Source: Patescibacteria group bacterium (GTDB lineage: Bacteria > Patescibacteriota > Patescibacteriia > Patescibacteriales > UBA12465). Taken from it: DNA of 64,000 nt. Location: positions 1-64,000 of the forward strand of contig JBBACQ010000005.1 of assembly GCA_041656935.1 (NCBI GenBank), written 5' to 3'. The notes beneath the pieces were generated by a model, which was given only the letters and a program-made list of their open reading frames with translations, was not told the DNA's origin and ran no database searches. This document shows positions 6,843 through 24,389 of the stretch, in pieces. The stretch's first letter is position 1, and every line of letters starts with the position of its first letter. The position numbers and the translations under genes were made by a program.

Positions 6843-6876
6843 TTTATTTGATTTACAATATTCTTCATAATTTTTA

Positions 6877-6905
6877 AAGCATCAATTTTAAATTGGTGCT
6901 TTTTG
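6877..6905 (+). terminator. Rho-independent terminator of pyrG
   Basis: AGCATCAATT-tta-AATTGGTGCT (10 bp with one G-U pair) followed by TTTTTG. Confidence 0.65.
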
Positions 6906-6912
6906 AATCAAA

Positions 6913-6938
6913 TAAAAAAGAGTCGCGAGCGACTCTTT
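6913..6938 (-). terminator. Rho-independent terminator of lipoprotein gene 6961..7506
   Basis: AAAGAGTCG-CGAG-CGACTCTTT. The minus strand reads the hairpin followed by TTTTTT. Confidence 0.7.
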
Positions 6939-6960
6939 AAGCTTTTTAGTTCCACTTCCA

Positions 6961-7506
6961 TTAGTAGGTCGTGAAACTTATCATGTTATTAATCCCATCA
7001 TCATGCGATAATCCGTGTTTTAGAAACCAATCCCCAGGAATTGCCCCAGGCATCTTTGAAATATTGTATTTCAAAGTATGGCCAGATTCGCTTCGGATGG
7101 TATAGTAAACCCATCCATTTTGAATCTTGTTTATCGTGTAGGTGGCATCATTATCAACATTGTTGTAAATAGTGATCCCGTTAGGTCCTACGTGAGGAAT
7201 TGAAAATGAACTCAAGGAAAGGGGATTAGGGTCTACTGAACTTCCATCCAGACTAATCCTGAAAGAATAATCGAACACGTTTGACCATCCTTCTGCTTTG
7301 ATTTTTCCTAAGCTTTCTATCGGGCGAGGATTGCATCCTTGCCAGTTAAAAGTTTCGGAATAATAATTGTTATTATTATCCGGCAGTGGAGCGTACGGTC
7401 CACCAAATTCCATTTTTTTGCAACTTGTCGTTCCTAGAACGATTGCAATTGCCAAACAAATAGCAAAGGCTATTTTGGCACGAATACTTACATTCAACTT
7501 TTTCAT
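6961..7506 (-). CDS. Hypothetical lipoprotein
   Basis: Signal peptide plus lipobox (AIAIVLGTTSC). The mature part is rich in G/N/P/W/Y. The gene is noticeably more GC-rich than its neighbours. Confidence 0.6.
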   Translation of the reverse strand: MKKLNVSIRAKIAFAICLAIAIVLGTTSCKKMEFGGPYAPLPDNNNNYYSETFNWQGCNPRPIESLGKIKAEGWSNVFDYSFRISLDGSSVDPNPLSLSSFSIPHVGPNGITIYNNVDNDATYTINKIQNGWVYYTIRSESGHTLKYNISKMPGAIPGDWFLKHGLSHDDGINNMISFTTY

Positions 7507-7605
7507 CTTTCTTACTTTTTGTGTTTCATTAAAATTTACCTATTATTTTTATTAACAAAAAAATTTATTAACATAAAAAATAGGTAAATCTGATTGTAAA
7601 GGAGC

Positions 7606-8697
7606 TTAATATAGGTTAATAGTACTTTTTATAATATTATCCCAATTATATTCAGACATTATCTTATTATACACATTTTTAATATTTTTGTCAAGGGCTT
7701 CAGCGTTTTCACCATTTAGAAACATCCCGAGCTTTTTTTCTAGGTCCTCGACGTTTTTATTCTTAAAAGAAAAGCTATCTTCACCCATTACTTCCAAGTT
7801 GGCTTCGATATCACTAATTAAAACTGGTAATTGATAAGAAACAGCTTCTAACAGGGAAATGGAAAGACCTTCGGCTTCCGATGGCTGAATAAACAATCGA
7901 GCATTAGAAAAAAGCTCGTTTAAGGTTTCACCACTTTGGCGACCAGTAAAAATAATATTAGGATTGTTTTCAGCTAGGGCTATTAATTTATCAGAAAAAT
8001 CACCATCACCGACAATCACTAATTTTTTATCAGTCTTTATTTTTTTATAAGCTTCAATTAAATATTCTAAACCTTTGTTTTTTACTATTCTAGAAACCGA
8101 TAGAATATAAGAATCTTTTTCTAAGTTCCATTTCTCGGTGATAATTTTAGCTGGAGAGGGTTTTGGTAAATTTACTCCATTAGGAATATAGTTGACTGCT
8201 CGATTATATTTCTCTTCTACATATTTTTTTAAAGTTTTAGAAACAACAATAACCTCATCGGCTAAGCGACAACCAACTCTTTCACCTATGGCTAAGTAGA
8301 TTTTAGCTAATCCGCCCCATTTAGTATTATAATAACATTGACTGTGAAAAGTAAAAACGACTTTCATTTTAGGACGAAATAATTTTACTAACCAAATTAG
8401 AGAAGCTGGACCAATAGAATGAAAATGAATAACATCAGCCTTTCTTCGGAAAACAAAATCTAAGCAGGCCAAAAAAGTATGACTGATAGCGTCTAAATTT
8501 TTGGTTTTAATGCTTGGTAGAGAAATAAGCTTTACTCCTTGATATTCTTTTATCTTTCGATCAGAATAATTATGACGAGTATAAGCAAAAACCTCATAGC
8601 CTAATTTAGCTAATTTTACAGCTAAATTATCGACATGAGTTTCCACTCCACCACCAACGGCAGGTATTCCTTTTTGTCCAATTATGTATATTTTCAT
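7606..8697 (-). CDS. Glycosyltransferase family 4 (GT-B)
   Basis: N-terminus GIPAVGGGVETHVDNLA. The C-terminal EX7E region reads FIQPSEAEGLSISLLEAVSYQLPVLISD. Confidence 0.8.
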   Translation of the reverse strand: MKIYIIGQKGIPAVGGGVETHVDNLAVKLAKLGYEVFAYTRHNYSDRKIKEYQGVKLISLPSIKTKNLDAISHTFLACLDFVFRRKADVIHFHSIGPASLIWLVKLFRPKMKVVFTFHSQCYYNTKWGGLAKIYLAIGERVGCRLADEVIVVSKTLKKYVEEKYNRAVNYIPNGVNLPKPSPAKIITEKWNLEKDSYILSVSRIVKNKGLEYLIEAYKKIKTDKKLVIVGDGDFSDKLIALAENNPNIIFTGRQSGETLNELFSNARLFIQPSEAEGLSISLLEAVSYQLPVLISDIEANLEVMGEDSFSFKNKNVEDLEKKLGMFLNGENAEALDKNIKNVYNKIMSEYNWDNIIKSTINLY

Positions 8698-9899: not shown

Positions 9900-11018
9900 C
9901 TACAAATATATTACTATGGCTCCGGTTGGAGTGTAATACATAGAGCTTTCCTTAACAAATTTGTTTTGGACAAAAGTTGATGTTCCGGTTCCCCAATCGT
10001 AGATATAATAATCATTCGCTGGGTTAAGAGGAAGGGTGGTGTGCCAATAGCCACTGCCAATATAAGTGGCGGTGGTTACTTGGTTCCAGGTACCAGATAA
10101 AGTATCCGTCCAGCGGAAAGTTGGGCTGGCGTCTAAAGAATAAAACCAAACATTCAAGATCCCACTACTAGGGTTAATTGAAAGCAGATTTACTTGGAAT
10201 TGTTCCTTATAATCTCCCATGGTAGTACTGGCTCCACTTGGCAAGGAAAATGTGCCACTTGGAGTTAGTGCTTGTCCGTTTTTCAAGTTGGCCTGTAAAA
10301 TATCAGTTAGCGCGGGAGGCGCATCCTGACACTTGTAAGGATCAGCTGGGTCGGCATTAAACCAAACTGGTTTTCCGGCTTTCATTATTCCGGCAATAAA
10401 CTTAACTGATAGTGGACCGGAATTGGGGGCATAACTGAAAGTGATATCAATTGAATCACCGCCAGTGGTTATTGCTATTCCGGAAAATTTTGGTAGGTAA
10501 GTAGCTGAAATATCATCAGCTCTTTCTGATATCCGGAACAGGGTATCGGCTGTCGTTACATAAATTGGTTTATTTATTCTAAATGTATAGTAGAACAAAT
10601 TTGACGAATCTACGAACGTTGAACCTAAAAAGCGAGCTCCAACCTGGGATATCCCCGGTGTGGTGCCAACCACGATAGTAATATCCCAATCAACTCCAAA
10701 ACTCTTAATGTTTAGATTATAGGTTCCGGTGTAAGTGAATAGTAGACTTATTTGGTCGGCTGAAGTAAAAGTATCCACTATTGGACCACTTAAAATCCAT
10801 TGGACGTTAGTCAATGGATCGGTCCAAAAAAGTGCTGTGATCATCGAATCCGGTATAAATACCGTTTGCTTATCAGCTACCGCCAAGCGGGCTGACATTT
10901 GTGGCGTTTTCACGAACACCTCAAAATCACCTCCTTTGTCGAAATTAAAATCTTTTTGACAAGAACTAAATCCTGCCACTAGGCCAATTATTAGGGCCAA
11001 AAATAACAACTTTTTCAT
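9900..11018 (-). CDS. Hypothetical lipoprotein (372 aa)
   Basis: Signal peptide plus lipobox (LVAGFSSC). Strong SD (AGGAGG). Composition is rich in G/T/S/P/W. One line (10021-10080) is 31/60 G+C by hand count, well above background. Confidence 0.6.
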   Translation of the reverse strand: MKKLLFLALIIGLVAGFSSCQKDFNFDKGGDFEVFVKTPQMSARLAVADKQTVFIPDSMITALFWTDPLTNVQWILSGPIVDTFTSADQISLLFTYTGTYNLNIKSFGVDWDITIVVGTTPGISQVGARFLGSTFVDSSNLFYYTFRINKPIYVTTADTLFRISERADDISATYLPKFSGIAITTGGDSIDITFSYAPNSGPLSVKFIAGIMKAGKPVWFNADPADPYKCQDAPPALTDILQANLKNGQALTPSGTFSLPSGASTTMGDYKEQFQVNLLSINPSSGILNVWFYSLDASPTFRWTDTLSGTWNQVTTATYIGSGYWHTTLPLNPANDYYIYDWGTGTSTFVQNKFVKESSMYYTPTGAIVIYL

Positions 11019-11219: not shown

Positions 11220-12551
11220 ATGGTTAATATTTTAGGAGTAGATATAGATAATAAATTAAATTTAGAAAACTTTTCTTCTAAGGTTAAGGGTTTTTTTATT
11301 TCTAATGAACAGCATTATATAACCACCCCTAATCCAGAAATAATTTTAAAAGCTCAAGAAGATGAAGAGCTTTTTTATATTTTAAATAAATCTAGCCTAG
11401 CTATAGCGGATGGTTTCGGATTAAAATTAGCCGGGTTATTAAGTGGTAAATGGGTAAGGCGATTAACAGGAGTTACGGCTTTATTGGAAATTTTAAAAAT
11501 AGCCGAAGAAAAAGAAAAAAAAGTTTTAATCGTAAATAATAAAAATGGTTTGTCTTCAAGTGAGGAGATTGAATCAGCTTTATCTAAAAAGTATCCCAAA
11601 TTAAATTTTTTAATAGAGAATTGTTCTTTTGATTTTTCAGTTAATGCTAAAAAAGAATTAATTTCCTTTGATTTTTTAAAAGATAATATTTTTACTAAAA
11701 TTGCTAAAAAAATAGAGAAAAAAATTAATGACAAGTTAGAATTTTTAGTACCAGACAAACTATTAGATTATTCACCAGATGTTTTAATCTGTAATTTTGG
11801 GGCACCTTATCAAGAAAAATTTATTTTTCATAATTTAGGTAAATTGCCAACCGTTAAGGCAGCTATTGGAATCGGTGGGGCCTTAGATTTTTTAACTGGA
11901 AAAATTAAACGGGCTCCTAAAATATTACGTTATCTAGGATTAGAATGGTTGTGGCGGTTAGTTAAACAACCCCAACGTTATAAAAGAATATTTAGAGCTA
12001 TTTTTGTTTTTCCAATAAAATTTTTTCAATGGCGGTTTATTAATCCCTTGTTTTATAGAAGAAATGTAATTTGTTTGTTGTATAGAAAAAAGGAGATTCC
12101 CTATACAGCCTTAGAAAACAAAAAAAGAAGCCCGCTAGAACATTATCAAGTTTTATTAGTAGAAAGAAGTGAGGAGGCTGGGCATTGGCAATTACCTCAA
12201 GGGGGAATAGAAAGTAATACCATTAAACGAGCCGGTAGTAGGGAATTATATGAGGAATTAGGTATCGAAAGTTTTTTACCAAAAAAGATATATAGGAATC
12301 TTTTTAAATATAAAACTAATCATCAAGGACGTTATGGTTTTAAAGGTCAAAAACAAAGCTTATTAATTGCCGAATATAAAGGAAGTGACGCTGATATAAA
12401 GTTAAATTTTTGGGATCATTCTGCTTGGAAATGGATTAAAGCGACTGATTTAGTAGATGAGGTTTACCCCCTAAGAAAAGAGGGTGCTAAAATATTTTTG
12501 AAGAAATTAGAAAACTATATCGAGACAAATTTAAATAAAAAATATGAATAA
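11220..12551 (+). CDS. Fusion protein: WecG/TagA/CpsF-family (GT26) glycosyltransferase plus C-terminal NUDIX hydrolase
   Basis: The N-terminal ~265 aa contain ILGVDID...TTPNPEIILKAQED...IADGFGL...FGAPYQEKFI...GIGGALDFLTGKIKRAPKILRYLGLEWLWRLVKQPQRYKR, which is the GT26 signature. The C-terminus has the NUDIX box GGIESNTIKRAGSRELYEELGI. Confidence 0.75.
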   Translation: MVNILGVDIDNKLNLENFSSKVKGFFISNEQHYITTPNPEIILKAQEDEELFYILNKSSLAIADGFGLKLAGLLSGKWVRRLTGVTALLEILKIAEEKEKKVLIVNNKNGLSSSEEIESALSKKYPKLNFLIENCSFDFSVNAKKELISFDFLKDNIFTKIAKKIEKKINDKLEFLVPDKLLDYSPDVLICNFGAPYQEKFIFHNLGKLPTVKAAIGIGGALDFLTGKIKRAPKILRYLGLEWLWRLVKQPQRYKRIFRAIFVFPIKFFQWRFINPLFYRRNVICLLYRKKEIPYTALENKKRSPLEHYQVLLVERSEEAGHWQLPQGGIESNTIKRAGSRELYEELGIESFLPKKIYRNLFKYKTNHQGRYGFKGQKQSLLIAEYKGSDADIKLNFWDHSAWKWIKATDLVDEVYPLRKEGAKIFLKKLENYIETNLNKKYE

Positions 12552-14002: not shown

Positions 14003-14635
14003 TTAGAGCTTAGCGATTTTATTAGCCGGAATTGAAAAAGGGGCAAAGCTTAAACGATGAATTGGACAAGGCCCATATAAACTTATCATTTCCATATGTA
14101 GTTTAGTTCCATATCCTTTGTGTTTGTCAAAACGATATAAAGGATATTTTTTATGAAATTCTTCCATTAAGAAGTCACGACTCACTTTAGCAATAATTGA
14201 CGCCATGGCAATGCTAAAAATTAAATTATCGCCAGAGACAATAGCCTCTTGAGGAATATTTACTTTTGGTATTTTAAATTTACCATCAACTAAAATAATA
14301 TCTGGTTCTAAATTAGTTTTTTTTAAAGCCTTTCTCATTGATAAAAAACTAGCTTGTAAAATATTTACTTTATCAACAACATTATTATCACAAATACCAA
14401 TTTCTACCGCTTTAACACTTTTTTTAATAATTGGAAATAATAGTTGACGTTGTTTACTATTCAATTTTTTAGAATCCCTAATTTTTTCTAATTCCGGAGT
14501 AATTTTGAAACTTGAATCAATAATAACACAAGCGCTAACCACTGGTCCCGCCAATGGTCCTCGTCCAACTTCATCTAATGAGGCAATCAATTTATGTCCC
14601 TGATTGAATAATTCTTGTTCTTTATTTAAATTCAT
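14003..14635 (-). CDS. rnhB: Ribonuclease HII
   Basis: DEVGRGPLAGPVV and DSKKL motifs. The ~210 aa size fits. Confidence 0.9.
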   Translation of the reverse strand: MNLNKEQELFNQGHKLIASLDEVGRGPLAGPVVSACVIIDSSFKITPELEKIRDSKKLNSKQRQLLFPIIKKSVKAVEIGICDNNVVDKVNILQASFLSMRKALKKTNLEPDIILVDGKFKIPKVNIPQEAIVSGDNLIFSIAMASIIAKVSRDFLMEEFHKKYPLYRFDKHKGYGTKLHMEMISLYGPCPIHRLSFAPFSIPANKIAKL

Positions 14636-14702
14636 AAAAAAATGTTATAATACTATTTTAACATATAAAAACCTCTCTTACAAAAAAATAAAAAGATTAA
14701 TT

Positions 14703-17168
14703 ATGAAATTTAATCCCGAACAACAGAATATCATAACTAGCCTGTGGGGAGCTTATTTAATAAATGCTCCAGTAGGAACAGGTAAAACCACGGTTCTAAC
14801 CGAGCGTATTATTGAAGCTATGAAAGAAGGCGTCTGCCCCGATGAGATTTTAGCCCTTACTTTTACTAATCGAGCAGCTGATGAAATGAAGAATAGGATT
14901 AAGGAAAGAATCGATGAAAAAAATGATTTCGATCTTTTAACTATTAATACCTTCCATGGTTTTTGCGCCCACTTTATTAAAACTGAGGCTAAAAATATCG
15001 GAGTATCACCTGACTTCGTAATTCTAGATGAAAATGAACAAATAGAAATAGCTCGAGATATTTTCGTTAAAGCTAAAATATCCTTTCCTGAAAAAAATAG
15101 AGAAGTTTTAAATATTTTAGAGAACTTCTATAAATATCGCTTATCATTATTCCAACAGGAAATGGGCCACAAAATACCAATCAAAAAAATACCACCGGAC
15201 TTAATTGTTTTTGGAGAGGAATATTTAAACAAACTAACTGAACAAAATTCCTTAGATTTTAACGAACTGGTTTTTTTAACCTTAAAGACCTTAATGACTA
15301 ACAAAGAGGTTAATGAAAAATGGTCTAAAAGATTTCGCTTTATTCAATTAGATGAATTTCAAGATACCCATATTTCTGAATATTTAGTTATTAAAGAGTT
15401 GGCTAAAAATCATAAAAATGTGGCTTTGATTGGTGATATTGATCAAACAATTTATAGCTTTAGAGATTCTCAGCCAGTATTTATTGCTGAATTATTTAAA
15501 GATCATTTTTCTCCAGTTAAGGAATTTAATTTAAAAATTAACTATCGATCTAATCCATCTTTGATAAAAGCTTTTATGTCCGTCTTGAAAAATATGGAAG
15601 CTCCACAAACCAAAATATTGAATAGTGGCCTGTTAGAAGATGCTAATGATTCCACTCAGATTATAAACTTATTTAGAGGGTATAATTTTAAAGAAGAGGT
15701 TCTCTGGACAATTGATAATATAAAAAAAATAAAAGCGCAAAATCCTCAAGCTAAAATTGCCGTTTTACATCGGGCTAATTATTTAATAAATAAAACTGCT
15801 CAAGTTTTTTCAGAAAATAATATTTCTTTTTTAACCGTAGACCAGTACGACTTCTTTAAACGTCAAGAAATAAAAGATATTTTTAGTTATTTAAAAATAT
15901 TATTTAATAAAAATGATCTTTTCTCTGCTAGAAGAATTATCGAGCGTCCCGCTAAAAATATTGGTGAAGAAACATTTAAAAAAATATATTTGGAAGGGAA
16001 GTCTTGCGGTCTTAATTTATCCGATTTTCTGGATTTTAAAAATTATAGTTTTTTAGAACCATTGGGTGAATTTATTAAATATGAAAAAGAAGGAAGAATT
16101 ATAGTCTTAGATACAGAAACTACCGGCATTAATCCGGTTAATGATGAAATTGTTCAAATTTATGCTCGTGAAATTAAGAACGGAAAATTAGGTGAAGAAT
16201 TTCATTTTTATCTTAAAAATAAAAAACCAGTAGGCTCTTCTTATTTTGTTCATAAGATTAGTGATGAATTTTTGGCTCAAAAAGGAGACGACCCTAAGAA
16301 AGTATTGGGCGACTTAAAAAAATTTATTGGAGATTCGGCGGTAGCCGGACACAATGTTCTATTTGATCTAAACATGATTAAAGAAAATTCTAAAAGACAC
16401 CATATTAATATTGAGTTTAATAATTATTATGATACCTTAGATTTAGCTAGAAGATTTTTAAATTTAACTAGTTATAAATTAAATAATATCTCGCAACATT
16501 TAAATTTTAAAACAGCCACTCATAGTGCTGACGATGATGTTGGAGCTACTATTGAATTGATGTTTTATTTGATGGCTCAAGCTAAAAAGAAAAAAGAAGA
16601 ACGAATTGTTTTGTGGAATAAGTTTAAGGCTAAATTTTTGAATATTAGTTTGGCGATAAATAATTGGCAAAAGCAAATAGACAAAAAAAGACCAGTAGAA
16701 TTATTAGATTATTTATGGACAGAGTCGGGCCTAGGTGAGTTTTATAAAAATGATAAAAACCACGAACAGAGATCTAAATCTTTTACTACTTTAAAAACTT
16801 TTTTTGAACAAAAAGATGATAAAAATTTAGATACCAAATCGTCTCTGCATAATTTAATTCATTTTGCCGGACTGGTAAAAAATATAGACTTTCTGGGGCT
16901 AGAGCAAGGGAAGGTGCCTATTGTAACCATTCATCAAGTTAAGGGGCTGGAATTTGATTATGTTTTCTTATTAGGTTTAAACGAAGGGACTTTTCCTCTC
17001 TTTAAGTCAGACAATCTTGAAGAGGAGAAACGTTTATTCTACGTGGCCTTAACCCGGGCTAAGGAGGGGGTATTCTTGTCTTACAGTAGTTTTAATGACT
17101 ATAATTATCCACTAGCTAAAAGTCGCTTAATTAGCTTGATAGACCCTTCATTCTTTCTAGAAAAATAG
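14703..17168 (+). CDS. UvrD/PcrA-type superfamily 1 DNA helicase with an internal DnaQ-like DEDDh 3'-5' exonuclease domain
   Basis: The start is trimmed to the ATG at 14703 (MKFNPEQQNIITS). Helicase motifs: NAPVGTGKTT (I), QLDEFQDT (II), VTIHQVKGLEFDYVFL and RLFYVALTRAK (V/VI). Nested between them, at about nt 16090-16580, are Exo I VLDTETTG, Exo II GHNVLFDLNMI and Exo III HSADDDVGAT. Confidence 0.85.
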   Translation: MKFNPEQQNIITSLWGAYLINAPVGTGKTTVLTERIIEAMKEGVCPDEILALTFTNRAADEMKNRIKERIDEKNDFDLLTINTFHGFCAHFIKTEAKNIGVSPDFVILDENEQIEIARDIFVKAKISFPEKNREVLNILENFYKYRLSLFQQEMGHKIPIKKIPPDLIVFGEEYLNKLTEQNSLDFNELVFLTLKTLMTNKEVNEKWSKRFRFIQLDEFQDTHISEYLVIKELAKNHKNVALIGDIDQTIYSFRDSQPVFIAELFKDHFSPVKEFNLKINYRSNPSLIKAFMSVLKNMEAPQTKILNSGLLEDANDSTQIINLFRGYNFKEEVLWTIDNIKKIKAQNPQAKIAVLHRANYLINKTAQVFSENNISFLTVDQYDFFKRQEIKDIFSYLKILFNKNDLFSARRIIERPAKNIGEETFKKIYLEGKSCGLNLSDFLDFKNYSFLEPLGEFIKYEKEGRIIVLDTETTGINPVNDEIVQIYAREIKNGKLGEEFHFYLKNKKPVGSSYFVHKISDEFLAQKGDDPKKVLGDLKKFIGDSAVAGHNVLFDLNMIKENSKRHHINIEFNNYYDTLDLARRFLNLTSYKLNNISQHLNFKTATHSADDDVGATIELMFYLMAQAKKKKEERIVLWNKFKAKFLNISLAINNWQKQIDKKRPVELLDYLWTESGLGEFYKNDKNHEQRSKSFTTLKTFFEQKDDKNLDTKSSLHNLIHFAGLVKNIDFLGLEQGKVPIVTIHQVKGLEFDYVFLLGLNEGTFPLFKSDNLEEEKRLFYVALTRAKEGVFLSYSSFNDYNYPLAKSRLISLIDPSFFLEK

Positions 17169-17264: not shown

Positions 17265-18509
17265 ATGAATAAAAACACCAACAAATTTAATTTAATTTTA
17301 ATAGCTATTTTATTAATATCTGGTATTTTTTTACTTAGATCAACTACCGCTATTTCTCAATATGAAGATGAGCTAGATCAGGAGATTGGAGAGCTAAATG
17401 AACAGATTCAAGGACAAAAGAAACAATTAGAGAATCTACAAAAAAGACAAGAAGAATACAGTAGACTGATAAAAAGTAAGGAACAAGAAAAAAATACCCT
17501 ACAGAATCAATTAGAAATATTAGATAATCGTTTTAAAAAAGCCGAATTAGAAATAGAAGAGGCTATTTTAGAAATTAGTAAAAATAATTTAGAAATTAAA
17601 AAGATAGAGATTGATATTGAAAATAAAAATGATTCAATTGAACAAGATAAAAATCATATCTCTAATTTATTAAAAATAATGTATAAGCAAGGGCAAGCTA
17701 CTCCCTTAGAAATTATTTTATTAAACGATTCTTTGTCTGATTTTATAGATCAATTAACCTATCTAGAAAATACCAATAAAGAAATAGGGAAGAGCTTAGC
17801 TCTTTTAAAAGATAATAAAGAAAAGCTAGACGAACAGAAAAAAGTATTAGAAGAAAAAAAGATAAAATTAGATGAATTAAAAAAAGAGTTAGAAAACAAA
17901 AAAAATATATTAGAAGGAGAGATGGCCAATAAAGAATTTATTTTAACTGAAACTAAAAAATCAGAAAAAGAATATCAGAAACTTTTAGAAATGGCCAAAA
18001 AAGAAAATGATCGAGCCATGGCCGACATCGCTTCTCTAGAAAAAACTGTTAGAGAAAAATTAGCCCAAAAATCTAATAGTGGCCTAGAAGACAAAGTAGA
18101 TGGATTTTCTTGGCCCGTAGCTAAAAATACTGTAACTGCTTATTTTCATGACCCTTCTTATCCTTTCAGGAAGACCATTGGGGAACACTCAGGAATAGAT
18201 ATTAGAGCCTCACAGGGCACAACCCTAAGGGCATCAGCTGATGGTTATGTGGCCCGAGTAAAATTCAATGGAAGCACTAGTTATGCTTATATTATGATAA
18301 TTCATGGAGATAACTTTTCTACTGTTTATGGGCATGTTTCTTCCGTCAGTGTTGGGGAAGATGAATATGTAACTGGAGGACAAATTATTGGTCGAACTGG
18401 AGGAGCACCACGAACTCCCGGGGCTGGACCTTTTTCTACCGGACCGCATCTTCATTTTGAAATCAGAAAGAATGGAATCCCAGTAAATCCTTTAAATTAT
18501 TTACCATAA
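17265..18509 (+). CDS. M23-family peptidoglycan metalloendopeptidase with N-terminal coiled coil (EnvC-like)
   Basis: TM anchor followed by a long E/K/L/Q heptad-rich region. The C-terminal M23 motifs are HSGIDIRA and GPHLHFEIRKNG. Confidence 0.85.
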   Translation: MNKNTNKFNLILIAILLISGIFLLRSTTAISQYEDELDQEIGELNEQIQGQKKQLENLQKRQEEYSRLIKSKEQEKNTLQNQLEILDNRFKKAELEIEEAILEISKNNLEIKKIEIDIENKNDSIEQDKNHISNLLKIMYKQGQATPLEIILLNDSLSDFIDQLTYLENTNKEIGKSLALLKDNKEKLDEQKKVLEEKKIKLDELKKELENKKNILEGEMANKEFILTETKKSEKEYQKLLEMAKKENDRAMADIASLEKTVREKLAQKSNSGLEDKVDGFSWPVAKNTVTAYFHDPSYPFRKTIGEHSGIDIRASQGTTLRASADGYVARVKFNGSTSYAYIMIIHGDNFSTVYGHVSSVSVGEDEYVTGGQIIGRTGGAPRTPGAGPFSTGPHLHFEIRKNGIPVNPLNYLP

Positions 18510-18938: not shown

Positions 18939-19910
18939 TTAATCCTTTAATCTATTAGAAGAATGGATCTTCTTATGAATATCACGCAATTGTTTTTTGG
19001 TTACATGAGTATATATTTGAGTAGTAGCAATGTTGCGATGACCTAAAAATTCTTGAACTAAGCGTAAATCAACCCCTTGAGATAAAAGATCAGTAGCAAA
19101 AGAGTGTCTTAAAGTATGCGGAGTAGTGATAATTGGTAACCCCGCTATTTTTACATATTTTTTTACTATCTCATCAATACTTTTAACAGTTAATCTTCTA
19201 GACTGGCCGTTTTTTTGAGCTGGTTTCCAATAGTTTATAAATAAAGCTTCATCTAAATCAGTTCTCAAGTCTAAATATTTTTTTAACCAATGAACAGCTC
19301 TTTGCGAAAAATAAACAGTTCTTATTTTTTTACCTTTTCCAACTATAACTACTTCCAAGTCCTTAGTGTCATTATTAATCCTAAATTGTTCTCGATTTAG
19401 ATTAACTAATTCTTGAACCCGTAATCCAGTAGAGAAGAGGGTTTCTAACATTGCCCGATCTCTTAGTCCGGCTTTAGTTTTTATATCGGGAGACATTAAC
19501 AAATTTTCTACTTGAGTAATATTTAAAAAATTAACCTCTTTATCTCCAGTTACTTTAGCTAATTTTATTTTATTGGGTGGCAGGGAAGGGATATTTTTCT
19601 CAATAAAATACTCTAACATTGACCTTAGGGCTATTAAATAGAGGTTTTGGGTGACCTTTTTTAGCTCTGTTTTGGTCCTTAGGCTCTTATTTCTTGATAA
19701 ATACAGTCGATAACGCCAAATATGCTCATCTGATAGGGCGGAGGGGGTTAAATGCTCTAATTTATTAGATTTTAACCAAGCAAAAAAATCACCCAGAAAA
19801 CGAGAATAATTTTCCTGAGTTTTACTAGACAATCCTTTTTCAATTTCACAATAATTTATGAAATCAATCAGATGTTTAATTATTGGTTTAGTTTTAGAGG
19901 GAAGAGACAT
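18939..19910 (-). CDS. Tyrosine site-specific recombinase, XerC/XerD type
   Basis: The catalytic region contains GLRVQELVNL (Arg I), HTLRHSFATDLL (H-x-x-R) and LGHRNIATTQIYTHV (the Tyr nucleophile). Confidence 0.85.
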   Translation of the reverse strand: MSLPSKTKPIIKHLIDFINYCEIEKGLSSKTQENYSRFLGDFFAWLKSNKLEHLTPSALSDEHIWRYRLYLSRNKSLRTKTELKKVTQNLYLIALRSMLEYFIEKNIPSLPPNKIKLAKVTGDKEVNFLNITQVENLLMSPDIKTKAGLRDRAMLETLFSTGLRVQELVNLNREQFRINNDTKDLEVVIVGKGKKIRTVYFSQRAVHWLKKYLDLRTDLDEALFINYWKPAQKNGQSRRLTVKSIDEIVKKYVKIAGLPIITTPHTLRHSFATDLLSQGVDLRLVQEFLGHRNIATTQIYTHVTKKQLRDIHKKIHSSNRLKD

Positions 19911-20446: not shown

Positions 20447-21379
20447 TTAATAATAAAATATTTTATCTTCATAACGTAAATCAATGTATTTCTTATCCTC
20501 TAATTTAGCGCCCAGTTCCCTTTTTAAGGTAAAAAATCTGGTAACCTGGTCTAAATAGTCGTTTTTTAGGTTAAAATAGAGCTCCAGGTCGTTTATAAGC
20601 TTAACTTTGATAGTATTATAGTCTTCATCTAGAACGATGTTCTTAAAGCCAAAACTAGTATTTTCACTAAGATCATTGTATAACTTAAGACCAAAGTTAA
20701 TATATTCAGGATCTAGTTTAATATTTTTTTTATCATCACTAACCCGAGCTAGACCGTTGTTTTCAAAAATTGGATAAAAATTTTCTTTTTTAAATTCTTC
20801 GTTTATATCTAAGCATTCTAAAATGGGTTCTTCTATAAAATCATCAGTGGTACTAGCCCCTTCTTCTGTTTCTGGGACAGCAGAACAATTCCATTTATAG
20901 TCTACCACATTTCCTAGATTATCAACCATATAATAAAAATTAGCTTCCGAGAAAATAAATGAAGTTTGACGTTCTTCAACGGTTATTATTAAAGATCTTT
21001 TAATTATCTTCTTATCAACCGAAATATTCATAAAATTTAACTCTGCCAAGGACTTAAGAAGCTTCTTTTCATTAAAAATAAAGACATTTTCCGAAGAAAA
21101 TAGAAGAAAAGAGTTGCTTTTTTGTTTTAAAACAATATTTTCTACAATTTCATAATTAGGAGAGCTTATCTGATTAATCTCAATTTTTTGAATATTAAAA
21201 AAGTTGGAAAAAAACAGAAAAATTAATACAAAAATTAAAAACGAAAGAAAAACTATACTAATCAAAACAAATTTAAAAGATCTCTTTCTTGGTGAGGTTT
21301 CAAAAGAGCTGGAAAAAGATTTTTTATTGCGTTGTAAAAAGGAATTATTTTTTATTTCATTTCTCATATAATTAAACAA
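20447..21379 (-). CDS. FtsQ/DivIB-like cell-division protein (POTRA-containing), tentative
   Basis: Single TM helix followed by FFNIQKIEINQISSPNYEIVENIV, which looks like a POTRA start. It overlaps alr by 8 nt. Confidence 0.5.
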   Translation of the reverse strand: MFNYMRNEIKNNSFLQRNKKSFSSSFETSPRKRSFKFVLISIVFLSFLIFVLIFLFFSNFFNIQKIEINQISSPNYEIVENIVLKQKSNSFLLFSSENVFIFNEKKLLKSLAELNFMNISVDKKIIKRSLIITVEERQTSFIFSEANFYYMVDNLGNVVDYKWNCSAVPETEEGASTTDDFIEEPILECLDINEEFKKENFYPIFENNGLARVSDDKKNIKLDPEYINFGLKLYNDLSENTSFGFKNIVLDEDYNTIKVKLINDLELYFNLKNDYLDQVTRFFTLKRELGAKLEDKKYIDLRYEDKIFYY

Positions 21380-22520: not shown

Positions 22521-24389
22521 TTATCTAATATTTATAACCTTTCCCTTACCACTAGAAAGTTTATCGTTTATTAAATTAGTATTTATGTTTTCTAAACTTC
22601 CAGCTATTTCTTTATCAATAAAAATATCTTTAACAGTGAATTTTATATTTTCCAATAAATTAGGCATGGTTCCTAAATCTTTTTCATCGGGAATTAGAGT
22701 TATTTCAAAGTTAGCTCGATATTTATTACTGCCACCAGTGATAAGAGGAACCTCCCAGACTAGACGCTTCCCTATTTCTCCGTAAATAAGCTTTCCGTCT
22801 AAGACCCTTTTATTGTCAGAGAAATAAACATTTTCTGGCAATTCAGCTGTTAAAACAAAATTTTCTAAATTATTACCTAGATTATTAAACTCTAAAAACA
22901 CCCAATAATTAGTCGCCATATCAACGGCTGGTGGTAATGGCCCAACCCCTAATTGATCTCCTTGAGGGCTATAATAATAAGCTCCAGCAATAGTTGAAAC
23001 CTGAGAGATAACCTTATTCTTAGAGGAATTAAGAGTATATTTAGCAACTTGACCATCAATCTCATATTCTAAATCAATTCGTAAAGAGACCTCTTGATTG
23101 GGTAATAATTGCTTTCGAGAAAAAGAAGTTTCTACTGAAAAAGTTCCACTCTCATCTTCTAAGAGATCGTAAATAATTAAAGAATTATCTTGATGTTGGC
23201 TATTTTTTAAATTATCTAAAGTTGACCAAGAGTTTAAAGAAAAATTAGGATTAGCGGAGCTAATAGAAAATTTTAGATTTTTTATACTTTTGGCTTCTTG
23301 GTTATGATAATCAAAAGTGTAAATAATTTTTTCATTTTCGTTAATATCTTTTTTATCATTAGAAACATTTAAATTAAAATTTAATTTCCTAACATTATAA
23401 AAAAATTTTTCACCAAAAAAAGAGAAAATATTGTTGTGGAAATTTATAGCAAATTTAGGGGCTATTTCTATTTCTCCCTCTTTTTCAACTAGTGCTTTAA
23501 AATTAATCTCTTTATCGGTTCGACCATCTATTTTAGATAAAATTATTTCACCGTCTTTAATAGGAAGATCACTTCTTAGAATTTCAATATTTGGTCCTAA
23601 ATTTATCTGCACATCTGAAAAGGAAGAATTAGAATTATTCTTTACTATTAATTTGCCACTAAATTCCGATCCCAAGTAGATATTTTCATCAATCTGAGTA
23701 GCTATGTCTAGGGCTGATTTTTCGATATTATAATATAAGGAATTAGCTAAACCGTTTCGACCACATTGTTCACAATCGAAAACGAAGGCAATCATTTGGC
23801 TGTCATTTCTGTTTCCCCAAACGAAACCATTTATTTTTATCTTGCCAGTAGTTCCAGCTTCTAGGTCTCCTAAATTAAAAATCCCTAAATTAGAATCGAA
23901 TAAATTATTAGGAGATACTGACTCAATAATAAAATCTTCTGGTAAAGAAACTTTAACTGAACTTCCATCAACACTAGCATTGAGACGGTATTCTAACTCA
24001 AAAGAATTTAGAGAGCCCGAATAAATTTCTTGATTAACGCTATAAGCTGTTAAAAATATATCTTTTTTAATCTTGTCATTTGAAAATAAAAATATTAATA
24101 AGGCTAAAATTAAGATCAACAAAAAAGCATCAGCTACTAAGTGCCAAATATTTTTTTTGTAATATTCTTCATTTCTTCTTTTAAGCGGATTCAATAGCAA
24201 GTTAACATTCCCGACCACTAAGTTACCACTCTTTCTAACATTAACTCTTTCATGATCAATACTAACAGCATTGTCGTCGTTAGTATTTTCTACCACTAAC
24301 TGAGCCTCATTAGATTGACTTTTGACAGGATAAATATTTTCTAAGCTATTTTCTTCTTTGGAACAGAAGTCTTTTTTGTCTTTTTTCAT
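22521..24389 (-). CDS. Hypothetical membrane-anchored surface protein (622 aa)
   Basis: One TM helix (WHLVADAFLLILILALLIFLF), then a long beta-rich extracytoplasmic region with repeated Ig-like/DUF11-like segments. No catalytic motif recognised. Confidence 0.45.
   Translation of the reverse strand: MKKDKKDFCSKEENSLENIYPVKSQSNEAQLVVENTNDDNAVSIDHERVNVRKSGNLVVGNVNLLLNPLKRRNEEYYKKNIWHLVADAFLLILILALLIFLFSNDKIKKDIFLTAYSVNQEIYSGSLNSFELEYRLNASVDGSSVKVSLPEDFIIESVSPNNLFDSNLGIFNLGDLEAGTTGKIKINGFVWGNRNDSQMIAFVFDCEQCGRNGLANSLYYNIEKSALDIATQIDENIYLGSEFSGKLIVKNNSNSSFSDVQINLGPNIEILRSDLPIKDGEIILSKIDGRTDKEINFKALVEKEGEIEIAPKFAINFHNNIFSFFGEKFFYNVRKLNFNLNVSNDKKDINENEKIIYTFDYHNQEAKSIKNLKFSISSANPNFSLNSWSTLDNLKNSQHQDNSLIIYDLLEDESGTFSVETSFSRKQLLPNQEVSLRIDLEYEIDGQVAKYTLNSSKNKVISQVSTIAGAYYYSPQGDQLGVGPLPPAVDMATNYWVFLEFNNLGNNLENFVLTAELPENVYFSDNKRVLDGKLIYGEIGKRLVWEVPLITGGSNKYRANFEITLIPDEKDLGTMPNLLENIKFTVKDIFIDKEIAGSLENINTNLINDKLSSGKGKVINIR

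What the first reader, a model, noticed from the sequence alone, without database searches (positions are those of the whole stretch)
14703..17168. UvrD/PcrA-type helicase with a DnaQ-like DEDDh exonuclease nested inside the helicase core
The N-terminal helicase motifs are GTGKTT, DEFQDT and the motif IV region AVLHRANY. The C-terminal motifs are VTIHQVKGLEFDYVFL and RLFYVALTRAK. Between them lies a ~160-aa insert carrying all three exonuclease motifs: VLDTETTG, GHNVLFDLNMI and HSADDDVGAT (H-x4-D, the DEDDh subtype). It spans about nt 16090-16580.

The insert occupies the position where SF1A helicases carry the accessory 2B domain. This is a domain-in-domain architecture rather than an end-to-end fusion. 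Established examples of helicase-exonuclease coupling put the nuclease at a terminus, as in WRN and Firmicute DinG. A single polypeptide combining 3'-5' unwinding and 3'-5' degradation could compensate for missing repair or recombination nucleases in a reduced genome.
Basis: partly seen in the sequence, partly recalled or inferred. Interest (0 to 1): 0.55.

Follow-up and report, generated by a model that had tools for sequence, protein, structure and literature searches.

The report
UvrD-like helicase with embedded proofreading-type exonuclease
This gene encodes one protein in which a DnaQ-type 3'-5' exonuclease is built into the regulatory 2B domain of a UvrD/PcrA-like DNA helicase; it is real and conserved in at least five bacterial phyla, but apparently never studied, and it is not special to small genomes.

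Summary
Window 14703-17168 (+) is one uninterrupted 821-aa ORF. It has a UvrD-helicase N domain, a UvrD_C match that spans residues 276-796, and an RNase_T/DnaQ DEDDh domain (467-619) inside that span.

All helicase motifs and the DEDDh pentad (D470, E472, D555, H607, D612) are invariant in the family. AlphaFold models are confident. The exonuclease part matches DnaQ, Pol III epsilon and PolC exonuclease structures.

The interpretation needs three corrections:
- The insert does not replace 2B. It splits 2B just after the duplex-binding GIG-like motif, and both 2B halves remain.
- The architecture is not an adaptation to a reduced genome. The same insertion site occurs in Acidobacteriota (9.5 Mb), Nostoc (8.6 Mb), Prevotella/Segatella, Negativicutes and Chlorobi-like bacteria, consistent with a single origin.
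- It is already in databases under generic names, though I found no characterisation.

In this CPR genome the gene lies in stable core-chromosome synteny. It is most likely a housekeeping unwind-and-digest repair enzyme.

Some relatives lie in defence loci, next to a UG35 reverse transcriptase or a Tiamat-like ATPase.

The parts
14703..17168 (+). Complete gene (821 codons plus stop) for the UvrD-like helicase with nested DEDDh exonuclease
   Evidence: Continuous ORF. The start at ATG 14703 is supported by the alignment of 51 homologs.
14712..15503 (+). Helicase N-terminal region (subdomains 1A/1B; PF00580, residues 4-267)
   Evidence: E 1.3e-63. It aligns to PcrA 12 onward.
14766..14792 (+). 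Motif I / Walker A, 'APVGTGKTT' (residues 22-30)
   Evidence: A22, P23, V24, G25, G27, K28 and T29 are invariant in 51 sequences. A22, G25, G27, K28 and T29 are invariant in the 18-sequence cross-phylum set.
15351..15365 (+). Motif II, 'DEFQD' (residues 217-221)
   Evidence: All five residues are invariant in the 51-sequence family alignment. D217, E218, Q220 and D221 remain invariant in the 18-sequence cross-phylum set.
15828..15995 (+). N-terminal half of subdomain 2B (residues 376-431, four helices), ending just after the GIG-like duplex-binding motif N419-I420-G421 (nt 15957-15965)
   Evidence: It aligns to PcrA up to residue about 430-433, including 'PKRGIG' against 'PAKNIG'. Helices are from the AF2 model. 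Mean column conservation is 0.74.
15996..16094 (+). Helical linker 1 (residues 432-464) leading from 2B into the exonuclease
   Evidence: AF2 helices 439-443, 445-449 and 455-459. The conserved 'GL.L.DF...EPF' pattern is shared across phyla.
16095..16589 (+). DnaQ-type DEDDh 3'-5' exonuclease domain (residues 465-629). ExoI is D470/E472 (nt 16110-16118), ExoII is D555 (nt 16350-16367) and ExoIII is H607-x4-D612 (nt 16521-16538).
   Evidence: PF00929 at 1.6e-24. The five catalytic residues are invariant. Sequence matches: PolC exonuclease 2p1j at 3.7e-18, then DnaQ, Cas2-DEDDh and DinG exonuclease. Foldseek gives TM 0.77-0.84 to DnaQ, epsilon and PolC exonuclease.
16590..16655 (+). Linker 2 (residues 630-651), part of a long helix (631-658) returning to 2B
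   Evidence: AF2 secondary structure.
16656..16907 (+). C-terminal half of subdomain 2B (residues 652-735)
   Evidence: It aligns to PcrA from residue 467/468 onward. The region is all-helical in the model.
16908..17165 (+). C-terminal part of motor subdomain 2A (residues 736-821), with motif V ('VTIHQVKGLEF') and motif VI ('RLFYVALTRAK'). There is no Tudor-like C-terminal extension.
   Evidence: T742, H744, K747, G748, E750, F751, V781, T784 and R785 are invariant. The PcrA alignment ends at PcrA 619 = residue 794, leaving only 27 residues.

Best explanation
The gene encodes a bifunctional DNA-repair enzyme. It is an SF1A (UvrD/PcrA/Rep-like) ATP-driven motor that translocates 3'-5' on DNA. 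Its accessory 2B domain carries, as a rigidly attached module, a proofreader-type (DnaQ/PolC-like) DEDDh 3'-5' exonuclease.

The motor opens duplex DNA from a nick, gap or 3' tail, and the embedded exonuclease digests a 3'-ended strand that the unwinding exposes. One polypeptide therefore does the unwind-and-digest step that E. coli splits between UvrD and ExoI/ExoX.

Because the nuclease rides on 2B, the domain that swivels and gates SF1A helicase activity, nuclease engagement and helicase activation are probably coupled.

In this CPR genome it is a vertically inherited housekeeping gene.

**Shown here:**
- the architecture
- the integrity and conservation of both active sites
- the fold
- retention of 2B
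- the core-genome context
- the wide distribution, consistent with a single origin

**Inferred, not shown:**
- polarity
- substrate
- coupling between the two activities
- the repair pathway
For: **Architecture and active sites**
- One ORF, with the three Pfam domains in nested order.
- Helicase motifs I-VI and the DEDDh pentad are invariant in 51 CPR relatives. The DEDDh pentad and the core helicase catalytic residues are also invariant in 18 cross-phylum relatives down to 24% identity.
- The exonuclease is as conserved as the motor (0.71 against 0.74-0.79), and the insert length is fixed at 219-221 aa.

**Structure**
- The full-length AF2 model has pLDDT 87.8 and pTM 0.79. Its best structural matches are UvrD, PcrA and Rep at TM 0.65-0.72.
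- The 2B-plus-exonuclease module alone has pLDDT 91 and pTM 0.87, which indicates a confidently fixed mutual orientation. Its exonuclease part matches DNA proofreaders: DnaQ domain 8h2f and epsilon 2ido at TM 0.83-0.84, and PolC exonuclease 2p1j at rmsd 1.5.
- The 2B halves and the GIG-like motif are retained.

**Context**
- The window is core chromosome: gltX, rnhB, serS, dnaX, purA, leuS and dnaE, with no defence genes.
- The full local synteny is kept in relatives of 71-78% identity.
- More distant CPR copies also sit among housekeeping genes.
- The nested architecture is absent from the phage collection.

**Evolution**
- In the helicase-core tree the 29 nested sequences are separated from the 52 insert-less ones by one branch with 78-79% bootstrap. 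Subclades follow phyla, consistent with mainly vertical descent.
Against: - There is no biochemical evidence for either activity, for polarity or for coupling.
- The geometry between the exonuclease active site and the DNA path could not be measured, because the tools return no coordinates.
- The protein's best defence-library match is the 'RT-associated helicase' model (466 bits).
- Some relatives clearly sit in defence loci, so a defence role cannot be excluded for the family.
- The protein lacks the C-terminal Tudor-like domain that canonical PcrA/UvrD have, and it fails the PcrA, UvrD and Rep equivalog cut-offs. It is therefore not simply the PcrA of this organism.
- Whether this genome has a second UvrD-like gene, UvrABC or MutSL is unknown. 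Only 64 kb is available.
Confidence: 0.6

Rival explanations
1. It is an anti-phage or anti-plasmid defence effector. The helicase-nuclease would thread and degrade foreign DNA, alone or with a partner, as proposed for RT-associated helicases, Gabija GajB and similar systems.
For: - PADLOC's top hit is RTasHel (DRT) at 466 bits.
- The Nostoc family member scores 954 bits on that model and lies 17 bp downstream of a UG35 reverse transcriptase. Mestre et al. 2022 (PMC9226505) list a UvrD-like helicase as the UG35 partner.
- The Chryseobacterium plasmid copy closes a cluster of a type III restriction-modification system and a TmtA/MkoA-like ATPase.
- The P. vulgatus plasmid copy sits among Fic, RhuM and recombinase genes.
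- The Dolichospermum copy is next to a HindVP restriction-modification system.
Against: - The window has no RT (tblastn). In the parts scanned, it also has no restriction-modification system or defence ATPase and no mobile-element signature other than a Xer-like recombinase.
- An RT is adjacent in only 1 of the 15 verified nested genes (14 fetched loci plus the window).
- CPR copies are 49-80% identical, of fixed length, and syntenic with gltX and rnhB in close relatives. That is the opposite of the patchy, fast-evolving pattern of defence genes.
- Mestre et al. rated the defence prediction for UG35 'inconclusive'.
- PADLOC models have no curated cut-offs, and any UvrD-like protein hits them.
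Confidence: 0.15
2. It is a PcrA-like resolver of replication-transcription conflicts and R-loops. The helicase would unwind RNA:DNA hybrids and the DEDDh domain would act as an exo(ribo)nuclease on the released RNA 3' end, as reported for B. subtilis DinG.
For: - The gene is divergently paired with rnhB (RNase HII), 67 bp apart, in the window and in relatives of 71-78% identity.
- PcrA-rnhB and PcrA-dinG genetic interactions, and a DinG exo(ribo)nuclease activity, are described in the abstracts of PMC8074105 and PMC12525004.
- The S. aureus DinG exonuclease is among the closest structures.
Against: - The rnhB neighbour is lost at about 52% identity and outside CPR.
- The protein lacks the Tudor-like C-terminal domain. 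That domain is what tethers PcrA/UvrD to RNA polymerase, according to the titles and abstracts listed.
- The nearest sequence and structure relatives of the exonuclease are DNA proofreaders (PolC exonuclease, DnaQ, epsilon) rather than RNase T.
Confidence: 0.15
3. The embedded DnaQ-like domain serves mainly as a proofreader or 3'-end editor for the replicase, substituting for epsilon. The helicase would be a delivery scaffold at the fork.
For: - The exonuclease is most similar to PolC and DnaQ proofreading domains.
- The window encodes DnaE and DnaX but no other DnaQ-like gene.
Against: - Only 64 kb of the genome was searched.
- The same fusion occurs in bacteria with 8.6-9.5 Mb genomes, which are unlikely to need a replacement proofreader.
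- Nothing found here links the protein to the polymerase or the clamp.
Confidence: 0.04
4. It is an artefact: two genes joined by a frameshift, a mis-assembly or a chimeric contig.
For: None found.
Against: - The ORF is continuous.
- The helicase resumes in register after the insert.
- More than 120 independently assembled homolog clusters, and complete genomes of cultured strains, show the same architecture.
Confidence: 0.01

Closest known systems
PcrA / UvrD / Rep (SF1A helicases; PDB 1pjr/3pjr, 2is1-2is6, 1uaa)
   Same: - All helicase motifs are present.
- The 1A/1B/2A/2B layout is shared, including a GIG-like motif in 2B.
- These are the best sequence matches (1pjr at 3e-67) and the best structural matches (TM 0.65-0.72).
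   Different: - About 185 extra residues inside 2B form a DEDDh exonuclease.
- There is no C-terminal Tudor-like extension.
- Scores are far below the NCBIfam equivalog cut-offs (PcrA 350 against 911, Rep 300 against 951, UvrD 264 against 1144).
Firmicute ExoDinG (DEDDh exonuclease plus SF2 DinG helicase; PDB 8zef) and human WRN
   Same: - One polypeptide combines a helicase with a DEDD-family 3'-5' exonuclease.
- The DinG exonuclease domain is a close sequence and structure match.
   Different: - Those helicases are SF2 enzymes (DinG translocates 5'-3'; WRN is a RecQ helicase) and carry the nuclease at the N-terminus.
- Here the helicase is SF1A and the nuclease is nested in an accessory domain.
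AddA / RecB (SF1A helicase-nuclease subunits; PDB 3u44, 1w36)
   Same: - An SF1A 3'-5' motor is joined to a nuclease that acts on the 3'-ended strand.
- They are detected as homologs of the motor.
   Different: - Their nuclease is a C-terminal PD-(D/E)XK endonuclease, not a DEDDh exonuclease.
- They work in hetero-oligomers.
PolC (Gram-positive replicase)
   Same: - PolC supplies the closest relatives of the exonuclease domain: T. maritima PolC exonuclease 2p1j at 3.7e-18 and rmsd 1.5 A, and TIGR01405 at 1e-28.
- From my own knowledge of PolC structures, not tested here: its DEDDh domain is also an insertion inside another domain (PHP). This exonuclease type therefore has a precedent as an insertable module.
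   Different: The host domain is a polymerase PHP domain, not a helicase 2B domain.
UG35-associated 'UvrD-like helicase' (cluster 22 of Mestre et al. 2022, PMC9226505; PADLOC model RTasHel)
   Same: - The Nostoc member of this nested family is exactly such a partner: 954 bits on RTasHel, 17 bp downstream of an RT_UG35 gene.
- The window protein's best PADLOC hit is the same model.
   Different: - The window has no RT.
- The window protein scores about half as high (466 bits).
- The paper does not mention the exonuclease domain (0 occurrences of 'exonuclease').
B. subtilis MrfA/MrfB (helicase plus DEDDh exonuclease repair pair)
   Same: A helicase and a DnaQ-superfamily DEDDh exonuclease cooperate in DNA repair (abstract of 10.1101/2024.02.15.580553).
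   Different: - They are two separate proteins.
- From my own knowledge, MrfA is not an SF1A UvrD-like helicase.

Membership tests
SF1A UvrD/Rep/PcrA-like helicase superfamily | Helicase motifs I (GxGKT), II (DExx), III, IV, V and VI | tested here: met
   G25/G27/K28/T29, D217-D221, G244/D245/Q248, Y281/R282, T742/H744/K747/G748 and V781/T784/R785 are invariant in 51 homologs. The core subset is also invariant across phyla.
SF1A UvrD/Rep/PcrA-like helicase superfamily | Pfam UvrD-helicase (PF00580) and UvrD_C (PF13361) above their gathering scores | tested here: met
   215.7 bits against 23, and 269.3 bits against 25.6.
SF1A UvrD/Rep/PcrA-like helicase superfamily | Four-subdomain fold 1A/1B/2A/2B | tested here: met
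   AF2 model with pLDDT 87.8. Foldseek TM 0.65-0.72 (normalised to target) to PcrA, UvrD and Rep. Both 2B halves align to PcrA once the insert is deleted.
SF1A UvrD/Rep/PcrA-like helicase superfamily | ATP-dependent 3'-5' translocation and unwinding | not testable with these tools
   Needs biochemistry.
PcrA / UvrD / Rep orthologs (NCBIfam equivalogs) | Score above the curated equivalog cut-off | tested here: not met
   TIGR01073 PcrA 350.4 against 911.2; TIGR01074 Rep 300 against 951.45; TIGR01075 UvrD 263.8 against 1144.45.
PcrA / UvrD / Rep orthologs (NCBIfam equivalogs) | C-terminal Tudor-like, RNA-polymerase-binding extension (PcrA and UvrD) | tested here: not met
   The alignment ends at PcrA 619 = residue 794 of 821, whereas PcrA has 724 residues. 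No extra C-terminal domain appears in Pfam.
DEDDh (DnaQ-like) 3'-5' exonucleases | ExoI D-x-E, ExoII D and ExoIII H-x4-D catalytic residues | tested here: met
   D470, E472, D555, H607 and D612 are present and invariant in 51 and 18 sequences.
DEDDh (DnaQ-like) 3'-5' exonucleases | PF00929 above its gathering score, and a DnaQ fold | tested here: met
   87.7 bits against 24. Foldseek TM 0.77-0.84 to the DnaQ domain 8h2f, epsilon 2ido and PolC exonuclease 2p1j.
DEDDh (DnaQ-like) 3'-5' exonucleases | Metal-dependent 3'-5' exonuclease activity, and DNA versus RNA preference | not testable with these tools
   Needs biochemistry. The nearest relatives are DNA proofreaders.
UG35 DRT-type system (RT plus RT-associated helicase) | Adjacent UG35 reverse transcriptase gene | tested here: not met
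   tblastn with the Nostoc UG35 RT finds nothing in the 64-kb window, and finds it in only 1 of the 15 verified nested genes (14 fetched loci plus the window).
UG35 DRT-type system (RT plus RT-associated helicase) | Helicase matches the PADLOC RTasHel model | tested here: inconclusive
   It is the best PADLOC hit at 466 bits, against 954 bits for the genuine Nostoc partner. The model has no curated cut-off, and the insert is not part of its 675 positions.
Gabija (GajA + GajB) | Adjacent GajA (OLD-family ATPase/TOPRIM nuclease) | tested here: not met
   The neighbours are gltX, rnhB and an M23 peptidase. The GajB hits (255 bits or less) are generic UvrD similarity.
Terminal helicase-nuclease fusions (WRN, ExoDinG, AddA/RecB) | Nuclease domain at the N- or C-terminus of the helicase | tested here: not met
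   The exonuclease (467-619) lies inside the UvrD_C span (276-796), between the two halves of 2B.

The most novel reading that the evidence does not exclude
An ancient, single-origin insertion of a proofreader-type exonuclease into the swivelling 2B regulatory domain created a self-contained unwind-and-digest strand-excision machine. Its nuclease is mechanically gated by 2B rotation. It serves as the housekeeping excision enzyme in Parcubacteria-type CPR bacteria, and it has been repeatedly co-opted as the DNA-degrading effector of defence systems (the UG35 reverse-transcriptase system and Tiamat/Mokosh-like loci).
Probability: 0.25. Interest if true: 0.65.

Novelty: new variant of a known kind. 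Interest (0 to 1): 0.45.

Why it matters
**Helicase mechanism**
- The role of the 2B domain in SF1A helicases (autoinhibition, duplex binding, partner activation) is a long-running question.
- A natural family that mounts a second catalytic domain rigidly on 2B offers a built-in reporter of 2B movement. It would also be a new way of coupling a helicase to a nuclease.

**Repair in CPR bacteria**
- The protein may show how strand excision is done by bacteria with minimal repair toolkits.

**Defence systems**
- The partner helicase of UG35 reverse transcriptases has been described only as "UvrD-like". It carries an intact exonuclease, which suggests an effector mechanism for that uncharacterised system.

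**Tractability**
- Cultured carriers exist (Segatella paludivivens, Pectinatus haikarae, Paludibaculum fermentans, Nostoc, Phocaeicola vulgatus), so the questions can be tested experimentally.

Tried and rejected
- **Literature.** Eight full-text searches and three targeted reads found no description of a UvrD-like helicase with a nested DEDDh domain. The only related statement is the "UvrD-like helicase" partner of UG35. The library omits most subscription-journal papers, so this is absence of evidence only.
- **PADLOC GajB hits.** Rejected as generic UvrD similarity.
- **Promoter and terminator scan.** Uninformative: 15 sites against 13.6 expected. A 'TGTTATAAT' extended -10-like string at 14643-14651 was seen by eye only.
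- **Genome-contig scan.** It cannot give frequencies, and it returned no Parcubacteria.
- **Alignment and bootstrap runs.** The first MAFFT run timed out. The first bootstrap had NaN distances and was replaced.
- **Locus for P0044.** No DNA was available; only its gene list was used.
- **rnhB linkage.** Tested and found to be lineage-specific, not family-wide.
- **Phage origin.** No phage record carries the architecture.
- **Geometry.** I could not measure the distance between the exonuclease site and the DNA path, because model coordinates are not exposed.
Full report
**1. The observation**

The ORF listing gives one uninterrupted ORF at 14604..17168 on the + strand.
- All 51 aligned homologs begin with the methionine encoded at 14703 ('MxFNxEQ', M1 invariant). 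The TTG at 14604 would overlap the start of the divergent rnhB gene (14003..14635, minus strand).
- The gene is therefore 14703-17168 and encodes 821 aa.
- Pfam places UvrD-helicase at residues 4-267 (E 1.3e-63). UvrD_C is a single stretch spanning 276-796 (8e-80). RNase_T is at 467-619 (1.6e-24; 87.7 bits against a gathering score of 24). RNase_T therefore lies inside the UvrD_C span.
- This is not a chance pattern or an assembly artefact. The identical protein is recorded by NCBI, JGI and Logan. The best 120 homolog clusters (49-100% identity, 791-861 aa) all carry PF00580, PF13361 and PF00929.

**2. Anatomy**

*Position of the insert relative to PcrA.*
- phmmer against PDB sequences aligns residues 3-431 to PcrA 12-433, and residues 652-794 to PcrA 468-619.
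- When residues 432-651 are deleted in silico, the remainder still aligns to PcrA 12-430 and 467-619.
- So 220 residues stand where PcrA has about 36, and both flanks of 2B are kept.
- The upstream flank ends with 'RPAKNIGEET', which aligns to the PcrA 'VPKRGIGAST' GIG motif. From general knowledge of UvrD/PcrA-DNA complexes, that motif contacts the duplex.

*Full-length model.*
- The AlphaFold2 model, built with 51 homologs, has mean pLDDT 87.8 and pTM 0.79.
- Its secondary structure reads as follows: four 2B helices (379-435), three short linker helices, a beta1-beta2-beta3-alpha-beta4-alpha-beta5-alpha DnaQ-type unit (465-629), a long return helix (631-658), further 2B helices up to about 726, and then the 2A strand at 738.
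- Foldseek against the PDB returns PcrA, UvrD and Rep first. TM normalised to the target is 0.70-0.72 for DNA-bound forms and 0.65 for apo 1pjr and 3lfu.

*The 2B-plus-insert module.*
- A separate model of residues 376-735 has pLDDT 91.0 and pTM 0.87. That is high for a two-part module and suggests the exonuclease is held in a fixed orientation on 2B.
- Its best structural matches are a S. thermophilus DnaQ domain (8h2f, TM 0.84), E. coli epsilon (2ido, 0.83), T. maritima PolC exonuclease (2p1j, rmsd 1.5 A) and the S. aureus DinG exonuclease. ExoX, RNase T and TREX rank lower.
- By sequence, the exonuclease is closest to the PolC exonuclease (3.7e-18), then DnaQ, Cas2-DEDDh and DinG.

*C-terminus.*
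- The protein ends 27 residues after the position equivalent to PcrA 619, so it has no Tudor-like C-terminal domain.
- It scores far below the NCBIfam equivalog cut-offs for PcrA, Rep and UvrD.

**3. Conservation**

- In 51 CPR relatives, the DEDDh residues D470, E472, D555, H607 and D612 and the key residues of helicase motifs I-VI are invariant.
- The inserted segment is 219-221 aa in all 51. Mean column conservation of the exonuclease (0.71) matches that of the motor subdomains (0.74-0.79).
- In an 18-sequence set reaching 24% identity, the DEDDh pentad, Walker A, DExx, R282 and motifs V and VI remain invariant.
- In that set the insert sits at the same site with 219-229 aa, flanked by shared linker patterns.
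- Both activities are therefore under purifying selection throughout the family.

**4. Distribution**

- An exhaustive HMMER search of 1.84 billion cluster representatives with residues 404-706 found 95 clusters at E<=1e-30. Most of the 150 listed hits are 780-940 aa, with one stretch spanning both junctions.
- Named CPR members are labelled Patescibacteria group, Parcubacteria, Falkowbacteria and Komeilibacteria.
- Named non-CPR members include Chloroherpetonaceae, Ignavibacteriaceae, Paludibaculum fermentans (9.5-Mb contig), Solibacter, Bryobacteraceae, Nostoc sp. UHCC 0702 (8.6 Mb), Dolichospermum, Nodularia, Sphaerospermopsis and Halothece.
- A tblastn check with the separated N-helicase, exonuclease and C-helicase parts confirmed the colinear nested order in 14 fetched loci and the window, 15 genes in all.
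- An NJ tree of the helicase core with the insert columns removed (81 sequences, 550 columns) separates all 29 nested sequences from 52 insert-less UvrD-like helicases by one branch. Bootstrap support is 79/100 (Kimura distance) and 78/100 (p-distance).
- Within the nested group the subclades follow phyla.
- Together with the identical insertion site, this points to one ancient insertion and mostly vertical descent.
- A Saccharibacteria genome in the sample has an insert-less UvrD-like gene (L065), so the fusion is not universal in CPR.
- The architecture is therefore not an adaptation to genome reduction.

**5. Context**

- The window is core chromosome. It holds glycosyltransferases, CorA, a WecG-NUDIX fusion, gltX, rnhB, the helicase-exonuclease, an M23 peptidase, a Xer-like recombinase, alanine racemase, serS, dnaX, purA, leuS and dnaE.
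- It has no second UvrD-like or DnaQ-like gene and no RT.
- Relatives of 71-78% identity keep the whole local order, from WecG-NUDIX to the Xer-like gene.
- At 51-53% identity the neighbours differ but are still housekeeping genes.
- No phage record carries the architecture.

**6. Defence-linked relatives (found in passing)**

- In Nostoc the family member lies 17 bp downstream of a 1139-aa RT that matches PADLOC RT_UG35 (1089 bits). The helicase itself matches the PADLOC 'RTasHel' model end to end (954 bits).
- Mestre et al. 2022 report UG35 RTs as associated with a 'putative UvrD-like helicase'. They do not mention an exonuclease, and they rate the defence prediction as inconclusive.
- On Chryseobacterium plasmid pA2BH1 the nested gene is the last of a tight cluster: DNA methyltransferase, a small REase-like protein, a type III REase, and a 1612-aa TmtA/MkoA-like ATPase.
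- On a Phocaeicola vulgatus plasmid it sits among Fic, RhuM and recombinase genes.
- The window protein's best PADLOC hit is also RTasHel, at about half the Nostoc score (466 bits).
- An RT is adjacent in only 1 of the 15 verified nested genes.

**7. Mechanism**

*Shown:*
- one polypeptide
- an intact and conserved SF1A motor
- an intact and conserved proofreader-type DEDDh site
- the exonuclease nested in a retained 2B domain, just after the duplex-binding motif
- a confidently predicted 2B-exonuclease unit

*Inferred from established SF1A and DnaQ-family properties:*
- The motor moves 3'-5' and the exonuclease digests 3'-5'.
- The nuclease could follow the motor along the same strand from its trailing 3' end. 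Alternatively it could trim the 3' end of the strand in the duplex that 2B holds.
- Either way, the protein would unite the UvrD step and the ExoI/ExoX step of strand excision at nicks, gaps or stalled forks.
- Because 2B rotation governs SF1A helicase activity, nuclease engagement may be coupled to the 2B state.

I put 0.6 on the housekeeping repair helicase-exonuclease reading for this CPR gene. I put 0.15 on a defence effector, 0.15 on an R-loop or conflict resolver with exo(ribo)nuclease activity, and little on a surrogate proofreader or an artefact.

**8. Novelty and score**

- Helicase-nuclease fusions are a known kind (WRN, ExoDinG, AddA/RecB).
- A DEDDh exonuclease nested in the 2B domain of an SF1A helicase appears to be an undescribed variant, although databases already hold hundreds of members under generic names ('3'-5' exonuclease', 'UvrD-helicase domain-containing protein').
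- It is a solid lead of moderate interest for helicase mechanism and CPR repair, with an unexpected link to defence-associated reverse transcriptases.
- It is not a categorically new system. Interest: 0.45.

Noticed in passing
L002 2565-5984 and 6001-8460 (Nostoc sp. UHCC 0702, CP071065.1): A 1139-aa UG35-class reverse transcriptase (PADLOC RT_UG35, 1089 bits) lies 17 bp upstream of a nested helicase-exonuclease that matches PADLOC RTasHel at 954 bits. The published description of the UG35 partner (PMC9226505) calls it only a 'UvrD-like helicase' and does not mention the intact DEDDh exonuclease.
   Followed up: partly
L089 1-11843 (Chryseobacterium sp. ANT_H2B plasmid pA2BH1, NZ_MN657149.1): A tight same-strand cluster: DNA methyltransferase, a 145-aa REase_II-like protein, a type III REase (424 bits), a 1612-aa ATPase matching TmtA (Tiamat) in its N-terminal part and MkoA (Mokosh) in its C-terminal part, then, 12 bp later, an 859-aa nested helicase-exonuclease. 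It may be an undescribed defence module that pairs a Tiamat-like ATPase with this helicase-nuclease.
   Followed up: partly
L087 4471-7209 (Phocaeicola vulgatus BFG-201 plasmid, NZ_CP103198.1): A 912-aa nested helicase-exonuclease, annotated '3'-5' exonuclease', on a 76-kb plasmid. It is flanked by Fic, RhuM, HTH-regulator and recombinase genes, a context that looks mobile or defence-like.
   Followed up: partly
L005 3138-5203 (Dolichospermum sp. WA123): A HindVP-type restriction endonuclease and a DNA methylase lie just upstream of the cyanobacterial nested helicase-exonuclease (6001-8472). No RT is present there.
   Followed up: no
Proteins P0163 (1173 aa) and P0258 (1114 aa): Two distant nested members carry C-terminal extensions of 320 and 216 aa. 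By eye, the first looks like Sel1/TPR-type repeats and the second like HEAT-type helical repeats. No domain scan was run on them.
   Followed up: no
Alignment A2; loci L009, L010, L015, L018, L019, L021; proteins P0233, P0251, P0268: The Bacteroidota subclade of the nested family has lost the GIG-like motif upstream of the insert and has 30-44-aa insertions in subdomain 1B (after reference residues 120, 134 and 141). This suggests a different mode of DNA engagement.
   Followed up: no
window 11220-12551 (+): A single ORF fuses a WecG/TagA-family glycosyltransferase domain to a NUDIX hydrolase domain. The same fusion is kept at the same position in relatives L090 and L091.
   Followed up: no
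window 18939-19910 (-); L091 8310-10357: A Xer-like tyrosine recombinase lies about 1.8 kb downstream of the helicase gene and is syntenic in close relatives. In L091 there is an extra, truncated copy that has only the N-terminal SAM-like domain.
   Followed up: no
window 17265-18509 (+): A 414-aa protein with a long, lysine- and glutamate-rich N-terminal region that looks like a coiled coil, plus a C-terminal M23 peptidase domain (EnvC-like). It lies immediately downstream on the same strand, and this arrangement is conserved in L090 and L091.
   Followed up: no
window 22521-24389 (-), 56283-57680 (-), 9900-11018 (-), 20447-21379 (-): Four sizeable ORFs (621, 464, 371 and 309 aa) have no Pfam match at the thresholds used.
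   Followed up: no
L065 8001-9923 (uncultured Saccharibacteria MAG): This CPR lineage has an insert-less UvrD-like helicase, so the nested form is not universal in the radiation. One close CPR-type member (P0066, on a 3-kb contig) is labelled Xanthomonadaceae, which is probably a binning error.
   Followed up: no
H16, NZ_CP154629.1 1997652-1998455 (Acetoanaerobium noterae): A Clostridia record, filed as a 2.6-Mb 'plasmid', matches 87% of the junction-exonuclease-junction query at 34% identity. It is probably another nested member in a further class, but this was not verified.
   Followed up: no
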